Source: Escherichia coli (GTDB lineage: Bacteria; Pseudomonadota; Gammaproteobacteria; Enterobacterales; Enterobacteriaceae). From it: DNA of 64,000 nucleotides. Both the position numbers and the translations under genes were made by a program. Shown here piece after piece: positions 17,757-17,862 of the stretch. The notes below the pieces were generated by a model that searched no databases, was not told where the DNA came from, and was given only the letters and a program-made list of their open reading frames with translations. The stretch lies in the NCBI RefSeq assembly GCF_013122565.1, contig NZ_CP053258.1; one strand, written 5' to 3'. Within the stretch, counting starts at the first letter, position 1, and each line of letters starts with the position of its first letter.

Positions 17757-17862
17757 TGCCGGATGCGATGCTGACGCATCTTATCCAGCCTACAGAACGC
17801 TGCAATTTATTGAATTTGCACGATCATGTAGGCCGGATAAGGCGTTTACGCCGCATCAGGCA
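17757..17862. repeat. REP/BIME palindromic elements between convergent aslA and aslB
   Basis: Two inverted copies of the GCCGGATG...CATC..CGGC REP consensus (tgccggatgcgatgctgacgcatcttatccagcc and taggccggataaggcgtttacgccgcatcaggc). Confidence 0.8.

What the first reader, a model, noticed from the sequence alone, without database searches (positions are those of the whole stretch)
17757..17862. BIME (paired inverted REP elements) in the aslA-aslB convergent gap
Two REP consensus copies in inverted orientation sit between the stop codons of aslA and aslB. Such elements act as transcript stabilisers or terminators and bind gyrase and IHF; a single REP of the same family lies between gppA and rep at 39353-39387. 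Ordinary for E. coli but explains otherwise unassigned palindromic sequence.
Basis: established knowledge. Interest (0 to 1): 0.12.

Follow-up and report, generated by a model that had tools for sequence, protein, structure and literature searches.

The report
REP pair (BIME) between aslA and aslB
The palindromic stretch between the ends of aslA and aslB is an ordinary, already catalogued E. coli repeat (two inverted REP hairpins around an IHF-type linker), though related strains carry it flipped end-for-end or partly deleted.

Summary
Positions 17757-17862 hold three parts. A 37-nt Z2-class REP lies at 17757-17793. A 34-nt L linker lies at 17794-17827 and carries the family's IHF-type core. 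A 35-nt Y-class REP lies at 17828-17862. The two REPs are tail to tail, in the 167-nt convergent gap between aslA and aslB. The element differs from the E. coli K-12 copy by one base.

More precisely it is the IHF-linker (RIP/RIB) type. It is not strict BIME-1, because its non-Y REP is Z2-class rather than Z1 and the flanking motifs shared by two of three canonical copies are absent. High gyrase affinity is a BIME-2 trait, not one of L-linker elements.

Outgroup genera have only a terminator hairpin in this gap, so the BIME is an Escherichia-lineage insertion.

One extra result: E. albertii, E. whittamii and about 1% of E. coli genomes carry the same element with its 84-nt interior inverted. 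Other E. coli genomes carry deletion derivatives.

Function (3' hairpins that stabilise the transcripts, IHF docking) is inferred from the family, not shown here. The finding is ordinary and of low interest.

The parts
17757..17793 (-). Z2-class REP (palindromic unit), 37 nt. It reads 5'-GTAGGCTGGATAAGATGCGTCAGCATCGCATCCGGCA on the - strand. On the + strand it is the 'iREP', ending in CTAC.
   Evidence: Two mismatches to the published Z2 pattern GTAGGnnnGATAAGnCGnnnCAnCGnCGCATCnGGCA (pattern from PMC2817692 Table 1). The two mismatches change one C-G stem pair to T-A, so pairing is kept. Hairpin of -15.3 (+) or -19.8 (-) kcal/mol.
17794..17827 (.). L linker, 34 nt: AGAACGCTGCAATTTATTGAATTTGCACGATCAT.
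   Evidence: The core TGCAATnTATTGAATTTGCACGAT is shared with the three canonical BIME-1 copies downstream of tkt, livF and dppA. The linker alone is multi-copy: median 12 places per E. coli genome, and 21-22 in many strains including K-12 derivatives. A below-threshold Rfam match to ES036 (RF02751) lies at 17800-17821.
17803..17815 (-). IHF-type core ATTCAATAAATTG. It has one mismatch to WATCAANNNNTTR.
   Evidence: Read directly from the sequence. The canonical L motifs carry the same core with the same single departure from the consensus (ATTCAATATATTG). An exact-consensus search finds no site in the linker. Binding itself was not tested.
17828..17862 (+). Y-class REP, 35 nt: 5'-GTAGGCCGGATAAGGCGTTTACGCCGCATCAGGCA. 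The A at 17858 is a strain-specific change (C in the other alleles).
   Evidence: One mismatch to the Y pattern. Hairpin of about -15 kcal/mol on either strand.
17756..17767 (.). Left outer 'head' repeat TTGCCGGATGCG, the inverted partner of 17852-17863. This is the left limit of the segment that is flipped in other lineages.
   Evidence: Inverted repeat I2, 12 nt, 92% complementary. The alleles of both orientations are identical up to this repeat.
17852..17863 (.). Right outer 'head' repeat CGCATCAGGCAA, the right limit of the flipped segment.
17872..17898 (+). Terminator-like hairpin (stem 17872-17878 with 17888-17894, 9-nt loop) followed by six T (17893-17898), oriented for aslA transcription. 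The T-run overlaps the aslB stop codon (17897-17899).
   Evidence: Fold of -11.3 kcal/mol on the + strand and only -8.2 on the - strand, with no T-run after it there. The consensus scan missed it because its loop limit is 8. Most other strains have the tighter form GCGGCC-ACAAAAT-GGCCGC. Outgroup genera have a single hairpin plus T-run at this place and no REP. K-12 lacks it (9 nt shorter).
16074..17729 (+). aslA (arylsulfatase), 551 codons. Its stop codon lies 27 nt before the BIME.
   Evidence: ORF list; annotation of matching E. coli records.
17897..19132 (-). aslB (anaerobic sulfatase maturase), 411 codons. Its stop codon lies 34 nt from the BIME.
   Evidence: ORF list; annotation; relatives found with this translation.
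39354..39390 (-). Single Z2-class REP of the same subtype, TGCCGGATGCGATGCTGACGCATCTTCTCCGGCCTTG on the + strand. It nearly fills the 46-nt gppA/rep convergent gap. The tail is degenerate (CTTG in place of CTAC).
   Evidence: It starts 8 nt after the gppA stop (39343-39345) and ends 1 nt before the rep stop (39392-39394).

Best explanation
Positions 17757-17862 are one bacterial interspersed mosaic element (BIME). It consists of a Z2-class REP and a Y-class REP placed tail to tail around the 34-nt L linker that carries the family's IHF-type site. This is the 'REP-IHF-REP' (RIP/RIB) kind of element, and it is the same copy that E. coli K-12 has between aslB and aslA. It is a non-coding member of the REP/BIME repeat family, whose spread is attributed to the REP-associated tyrosine transposase (TnpA-REP/RAYT). 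It entered this gap in an ancestor of the genus Escherichia, next to a terminator-type hairpin like the one that is all the outgroup genera have there. How it most likely works here is inferred from the family and was not shown. Both convergent genes would transcribe it as part of their 3' untranslated regions. There it would fold into two stable stem-loops or one long hairpin that hinder 3'-to-5' exonucleases, and it may dampen read-through into the opposite gene. On DNA, the L linker would offer a bend-inducing IHF docking site. For aslA, the adjacent hairpin with its T-run is the likelier actual terminator.
For: Shown: both REPs match the published Y and Z2 patterns at exactly these coordinates, with 0 matches expected by chance. 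The L linker aligns to three canonical BIME-1 linkers. The REPs and the linker are each multi-copy in 5425 of 5426 E. coli genomes. K-12 carries the same element. Strong folds were found: -15 to -20 kcal/mol per REP and -54 to -60 for the whole element as RNA (z -8 to -9), and -32 as DNA (z -7). The location is extragenic, between convergent stop codons. Kluyvera, Pseudocitrobacter, Superficieibacter, Citrobacter, Pluralibacter and an unnamed Enterobacteriaceae isolate have only a hairpin with a T-run in the orthologous gap, whereas every Escherichia lineage sampled has REPs there. [quoted passage not shown] From the literature: the L linker of BIME-1 is well conserved and often carries an IHF site, and TnpA-REP binds and cleaves single-stranded BIMEs and needs the GTAG tail (PMC3333891).
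Against: Nothing contradicts the identification. The functional part is untested here. No 3'-end, mRNA half-life or IHF-occupancy data for this locus were found. The IHF core departs from the textbook consensus at one position. About 58% of E. coli genomes lack the intact element, which argues that it is dispensable. K-12 also lacks the neighbouring terminator hairpin.
Confidence: 0.95

Rival explanations
1. The palindrome is simply the bidirectional intrinsic terminator of the convergent aslA/aslB pair and only resembles REPs.
For: It lies between convergent stop codons and folds very stably on both strands. Outgroup genera have a terminator hairpin in this gap.
Against: Both arms and the linker belong to multi-copy families with defined consensus sequences. 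No T-run follows the element on either strand. A separate hairpin with a T-run lies next to it at 17872-17898, in the place where the outgroups have their terminator. Many E. coli genomes have lost most of the element but keep that hairpin.
Confidence: 0.03
2. The region encodes a small RNA of its own (of the naRNA4 or ES036 kind), or the 78-codon ORF at 17756-17992.
For: There are below-threshold Rfam matches: naRNA4 at 36.2 bits against a gathering score of 59.5, and ES036 at 30 bits against 37.6. A mechanical ORF starts at a TTG inside the first REP.
Against: No Rfam family reaches its gathering score in the gap. The weak matches are expected because naRNA4 derives from a Y-Z2 REP cluster (PMC4550694). 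No promoter-like site was found in 17400-18200. The ORF runs antisense through the end of aslB, and its start lies in sequence that other strains carry inverted or deleted.
Confidence: 0.02
3. The opposite orientations seen in different lineages come from two independent insertions of similar BIMEs at one hot spot, not from inversion of a single resident element.
For: REP/BIME elements are thought to be mobile and to favour sites that already carry REPs (PMC3333891). The left flank differs between the two orientation classes (11 nt against 19 nt). One lineage (L014) has a different, shorter linker between the same two REP types.
Against: Both orientation classes have the same pair of REP types, the same L linker, the same outer heads and the same right flank. 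Reverse-complementing the 84-nt interior raises identity from 67-71% to 89-92%. The left-flank difference is explained by one roughly 8-nt indel plus substitutions.
Confidence: 0.12

Closest known systems
RIP / RIB elements (REP-IHF-REP; Oppenheim et al. 1993, cited from memory; Boccard & Prentki 1993, listed but not held), which correspond to BIME-1 of Bachellier and Gilson
   Same: Single-copy unit of two REPs tail to tail around the conserved L linker with the IHF-type core. One REP is Y-class. [quoted passage not shown] The L and Y parts align almost base for base with the BIME-1 copies downstream of tkt, livF and dppA.
   Different: The second REP is Z2-class (37 nt), not Z1 (30 nt). The flanking motifs seen in the tkt and dppA copies (..GACTGATGGCAAAGGCAAAAC on one side, ..ACAAMGCGCACTTTGYCAAYAATCTG on the other) are absent. 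Under the published three-way scheme it therefore falls into 'atypical BIME'.
BIME-2 (alternating Y and Z2 REPs with short linkers; higher gyrase affinity than BIME-1)
   Same: It uses the Y and Z2 REP types. One Escherichia lineage (L014) has these two REPs with a short 21-nt linker in place of L at this same locus.
   Different: It is a single unit, not a tandem array. Its linker is L, not the short S type. No gyrase data exist for it.
REPINs (REP doublets forming hairpins; Bertels & Rainey, PMC3116915 and PMC3337134)
   Same: Two inverted REPs with a spacer fold into one long hairpin. The population carries derivatives that look like excision of the central sequence, leaving a long palindromic singlet (allele GCCGGATGCGatgctgaCGCATCCGaC).
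   Different: REPINs were defined in Pseudomonas with two copies of one REP type. Here the two REPs are of different types, which is what makes an in-place inversion visible.

Membership tests
REP / palindromic unit (PU) | Imperfect palindrome of 30-40 nt with a conserved GTAG tetranucleotide at one foot | tested here: met
   Both units (37 and 35 nt) fold as interrupted hairpins. They carry GTAG at 17828-17831 (+) and at 17790-17793 (read on the - strand). The definition is from PMC3333891.
REP / palindromic unit (PU) | Match to a species-specific consensus (Y, Z1 or Z2) | tested here: met
   Y pattern with 1 mismatch. Z2 pattern with 2 mismatches that form a compensatory pair. In both searches 0 matches were expected by chance.
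REP / palindromic unit (PU) | High copy number, extragenic | tested here: met
   The 331-nt query that includes both REPs finds a median of 21 places per genome at megablast stringency, in 5425 of 5426 genomes. The element lies between two stop codons.
BIME (generic) | Two or more REPs in alternating orientation separated by defined linker motifs | tested here: met
   Z2 and Y REPs tail to tail around the L linker.
BIME-1 (strict sense) | [quoted passage not shown] | tested here: not met
   The Y REP is present, but the partner is Z2-class (37 nt) and not Z1 (TGCCTGATGCGCTACGCTTATCAGGCCTAC, 30 nt, as in L007, L008 and L010). Definitions are from PMC3333891 and PMC1187871.
BIME-1 (strict sense) | Single copy with the long, conserved L linker | tested here: met
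   One unit only. The L core is identical to the canonical copies except at the one variable position.
RIP / RIB (IHF-binding BIME) | IHF recognition sequence in the linker | tested here: inconclusive
   ATTCAATAAATTG has one mismatch to WATCAANNNNTTR, and an exact search finds no site in the linker. The canonical L motifs show the same single departure from the consensus.
RIP / RIB (IHF-binding BIME) | IHF actually binds | not testable with these tools
   No binding data for this locus were found. The text of the IHF ChIP-seq paper does not discuss REPs and its supplements are not held.
BIME-2 | Tandem Y/Z2 units with the short S linker | tested here: not met
   It is a single unit with the 34-nt L linker.
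REPIN / RAYT system | REP doublet able to form one hairpin | tested here: met
   Long hairpin of -54 to -60 kcal/mol as RNA and -32 as DNA, z -7 to -9.
REPIN / RAYT system | Cognate RAYT (tnpA-REP, yafM) in the same genome | not tested
   The window was not searched for this gene. In E. coli it is reported between yafL and fhiA, and about two thirds of strains carry it (PMC3333891).

The most novel reading that the evidence does not exclude
The aslA-aslB BIME is an old orientation polymorphism shared across Escherichia species. Its whole 84-nt interior (both REP cores plus the L linker) was flipped in place between the 12-nt outer head repeats. The probably ancestral Y-first form is found in E. 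albertii, E. whittamii, two divergent Escherichia lineages (L015, L017) and about 1% of E. coli. The flipped Z2-first form is found in this window, in K-12 and in most E. coli. Each form has since decayed by symmetric internal deletions. If in-place flipping of BIMEs has not been described before, this locus gives a natural allelic series for testing orientation-dependent effects of REP/IHF elements and the RAYT excision and re-integration models. The series comprises both orientations, a single REP, a mini-palindrome and an aslA deletion that ends in the REP tail.
Probability: 0.4. Interest if true: 0.3.

Novelty: already known. Interest (0 to 1): 0.14.

Why it matters
In itself it matters little. 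It assigns otherwise unexplained palindromic sequence to a well-known repeat family, and it tells annotators not to call the overlapping 78-codon ORF or a new RNA there. The population data add a modest point. This one intergenic repeat accounts for most of the structural variation at the aslA-aslB locus: an inversion, two kinds of internal deletion, and the end point of a 1.57-kb aslA deletion in about a third of E. coli genomes. This illustrates how REP elements drive small-scale rearrangements.

Tried and rejected
- **RefSeq annotation.** The K-12 and other records list no repeat feature in this gap, so annotation could not confirm the element's name.
- **Literature on aslA/aslB.** A search for aslA or aslB together with REP returned only irrelevant papers.
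- **Primary papers.** The papers on BIME polymorphism (PMC1207841) and RIBs (PMC413762) are not held. I therefore could not check whether this locus, or BIME inversion, was described there.
- **IHF and REP transcript data.** The text of the IHF ChIP-seq paper does not discuss REPs, and the supplements of that paper and of the REP RNA-seq paper are not held.
- **Exact IHF consensus.** It has no match in the linker. The site is assigned through identity to the L family.
- **Promoter and terminator scan.** It found nothing in the gap. It missed the 17872-17898 hairpin only because its loop limit is 8 nt.
- **Rfam.** Nothing reaches gathering score in the gap. Only weak REP-derived matches appear at relaxed threshold.
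- **Recurrent flipping.** The 360-nt flank tree does not follow orientation. A left-flank indel does follow it. A single old inversion spread by recombination is therefore more economical, and the tree is too short to decide.
- **Is flipping general?** An inverted version of the livF BIME-1, built in silico, has no natural counterpart in 5426 genomes (best full-length identity 90.6%, which is the direct allele).
- **RAYT cut at the aslA deletion.** The aslA deletion junction is not a clean TnpA-REP cut (C^TAC). It shows TATC microhomology plus loss of GCCTA.

Full report
**Observation**

The window has aslA on the + strand (16074-17729) and aslB on the - strand (stop codon at 17897-17899), which leaves a 167-nt convergent gap.

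- Positions 17828-17862 match the Y-class REP pattern with one mismatch.
- Positions 17757-17793, read on the - strand, match the Z2-class pattern with two mismatches. Both patterns are taken from Table 1 of PMC2817692.
- No match to either pattern occurred in 100 dinucleotide-preserving shuffles of the window.
- The two Z2 mismatches change one C-G stem pair to T-A, so pairing is kept.
- The two REPs have their GTAG/CTAC tails facing each other.
- Each REP folds on its own at -15 to -20 kcal/mol. The whole element folds as one long hairpin at -54 (+ strand) or -60 (- strand) kcal/mol as RNA, z -8 to -9, and at -32 kcal/mol as DNA, z -7.

**The linker**

The 34 nt between the REPs (17794-17827) are not arbitrary.

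- On its own the linker is repeated a median of 12 times per E. coli genome, and 21-22 times in many strains including K-12 derivatives.
- I fetched three other copies, downstream of tkt, livF and dppA. They are textbook BIME-1 elements: a 30-nt Z1 REP, the L linker and an inverted Y REP. The tkt and dppA copies also share conserved motifs on both outer sides.
- The window's linker core, TGCAAT-T-TATTGAATTTGCACGAT, is identical to theirs except at the one variable position. Its Y REP is also nearly identical.
- The IHF-type core is ATTCAATAAATTG on the - strand (17803-17815). It departs from WATCAANNNNTTR at one position, exactly as in the canonical copies. An exact-consensus search therefore misses it.

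**Classification**

The published scheme defines three classes (PMC3333891; PMC1187871):

- BIME-1: one Y plus one Z1 REP with the L linker.
- BIME-2: tandem Y/Z2 units with short linkers.
- Atypical: everything else.

The element here is Y + Z2 + L, and it lacks the flanking motifs seen in the tkt and dppA copies. Formally it is an atypical BIME. Functionally it belongs with the IHF-linker (RIP/RIB) class. The remark about gyrase fits BIME-2 better, since BIME-2 is reported to have the higher gyrase affinity (PMC1475751).

**Identity with the K-12 element**

MG1655 has the same element between aslB and aslA. The 84-nt interior is 100% identical. The only difference inside the BIME is C in K-12 against A at 17858 in the window. 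The RefSeq copies searched list no repeat feature there.

**Neighbourhood**

Immediately to the right of the BIME lies a hairpin (17872-17894) followed by six T (17893-17898). It is oriented for aslA, and its T-run overlaps the aslB stop codon.

In the orthologous gaps of Kluyvera, Pseudocitrobacter, Superficieibacter, Citrobacter, Pluralibacter and an unnamed Enterobacteriaceae isolate there is no REP at all. There is only one G+C-rich hairpin with a T-run. The BIME is therefore an insertion specific to the Escherichia lineage, beside a hairpin of the kind the outgroups carry there. That hairpin, not the BIME, is the likelier aslA terminator. K-12 has lost it (9 nt shorter).

**Mechanism (inferred)**

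Both genes must transcribe into the element. REP hairpins in 3' untranslated regions are known, from established literature recalled here, to block 3'-to-5' exonucleases and to attenuate read-through. The L linker is the family's IHF site (PMC3333891). I found no 3'-end, half-life or IHF data for this locus. About 58% of complete E. coli genomes lack the intact element, so any role is dispensable.

**Beyond the finding: an allelic series**

Only 2259 of 5426 E. coli genomes have a full-length element. The percentages for the three derived alleles below come from rows sampled evenly down the two hit lists.

| Allele | Share of genomes | Description |
|---|---|---|
| Full-length BIME | 41.6% (2259) | Intact element, either orientation |
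| aslA deletion | about 31% | A 1.57-kb deletion of aslA whose right end lies in the tail of the first REP (TATC microhomology, plus loss of GCCTA) |
| Mini-palindrome | about 13% | GCCGGATGCGatgctgaCGCATCCGaC, equal to loss of 77 nt between CGCATC direct repeats |
| Single Y REP | about 10% | One Y-class REP remains |

**Beyond the finding: an in-place inversion**

E. albertii, E. whittamii, two divergent Escherichia lineages and about 50-74 E. coli genomes (for example ESDR8 and O145 RM9872) carry the same element in the opposite orientation. It lies between the same outer heads (TTGCCGGATGCG ... CGCATCCGGCAA) and has the same right flank.

- Identity of the 84-nt interior to the window is 67-71% when aligned directly. 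It rises to 89-92% after reverse-complementing.
- Alleles of the same orientation as the window score 94-100% directly.
- The single-REP allele has the left flank of the Y-first form. The mini-palindrome allele has the left flank of the Z2-first form. Each orientation has therefore produced its own deletion product.
- E. albertii has the Y-first form, which suggests that form is ancestral.
- Orientation does not follow a 360-nt flank tree, but it is perfectly linked to a roughly 8-nt indel in the left flank. One old inversion spread by recombination is the simplest reading.
- The surrounding 5 kb (about 14250-19250) is unusually divergent: 90-97% identical to one of the best-matching E. coli genomes, against 99.4% for 30000-37000. 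This fits long-lived haplotypes at this locus.
- As a control, an inverted livF BIME-1 built in silico has no natural counterpart. Such flips are therefore not routine.
- I could not read the 1997 paper on BIME polymorphism, so I cannot say whether inversion has been described before.

**The second REP**

Positions 39354-39390 hold a single Z2-class REP with the same 16-nt core. It starts 8 nt after the gppA stop codon and ends 1 nt before the rep stop codon. Its tail is degenerate (CTTG in place of CTAC).

**Verdict**

This is a real, correctly recognised and already known kind of element, and in fact a known copy. It is ordinary for E. coli and of low interest. The orientation polymorphism is a small curiosity worth a note.

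Noticed in passing
window 17768-17851; loci L011, L013, L015, L017, L091 (Y-first); L012, L006 (same orientation as the window): The 84-nt interior of the BIME is inverted in place in E. albertii, E. whittamii, two other Escherichia lineages and about 1% of E. coli genomes. Identity to the window is 67-71% directly and 89-92% after reverse-complementing. Orientation is linked to a roughly 8-nt indel in the left flank.
   Followed up: yes
L005 2581-2670; L003 581-681 (also L092): There are two internal-deletion alleles in E. coli. One is a 'mini-palindrome' formed by the head of REP1 joined to the head of REP2 (gap 90 nt, about 13% of genomes). The other is a single Y REP (gap 101 nt, about 10%). 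Each keeps the left flank of one orientation class.
   Followed up: partly
L004 2361-2520; window 16213-17792: About 31% of complete E. coli genomes lack most of aslA through a roughly 1.57-kb deletion. Its right end lies in the tail of the first REP (TATC microhomology, with GCCTA also missing). The L linker and the Y REP remain.
   Followed up: partly
window 17872-17898; L006 (MG1655): The terminator-like hairpin with its T-run next to the BIME is replaced in K-12, and in some other strains (SCU-122, ESDR8, isolate 624), by GGCGGCCGCCGATTTCTAC. That version is 9 nt shorter and has no T-run.
   Followed up: no
window about 14250-19250: The segment from the hemY 3' end through glmZ, aslA and aslB is only 90-97% identical to one of the best-matching genomes among 5426 complete E. 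coli genomes. By contrast 19250-21000 is 97-100% identical and 30000-37000 is 99.4% identical. This is a locally hypervariable or imported haplotype.
   Followed up: partly
window 39354-39390: The single REP nearly fills the whole gppA/rep convergent gap, starting 8 nt after the gppA stop codon and ending 1 nt before the rep stop codon. From memory, REPs within about 15 nt of a stop codon were reported to reduce translation of the upstream gene (Liang, Rudd & Deutscher 2015). This was not checked here.
   Followed up: no
window 17800-17821 (-) and 17831-17916 (+): There are below-threshold Rfam matches: ES036/CssrF (RF02751) on the L linker and naRNA4 (RF02564) on the REPs. This suggests those Rfam families are themselves built on BIME sequence.
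   Followed up: no
L014 (E. coli SCPM-O-B-8794) and L012 (Escherichia sp. E1V33), orthologous gap: L014 has the same Y and Z2 REPs, but with a different 21-nt linker (TGGACAACAATGTGGTGTTCT) in place of L. L012 has both tail tetranucleotides mutated (CTAC to CGAC, GTAG to CCAG), so that copy should no longer be a TnpA-REP substrate.
   Followed up: no
window 15443-15649 (-), 19282-19715 (-), 36300-36399 (-), 54963-60184 (-): Rfam gives context at gathering score: glmZ upstream of aslA, a cluster of four tRNAs beyond aslB, the trxA 5' UTR thermometer, and an rRNA operon. This gene order agrees with the annotated E. coli records fetched for this locus.
   Followed up: no
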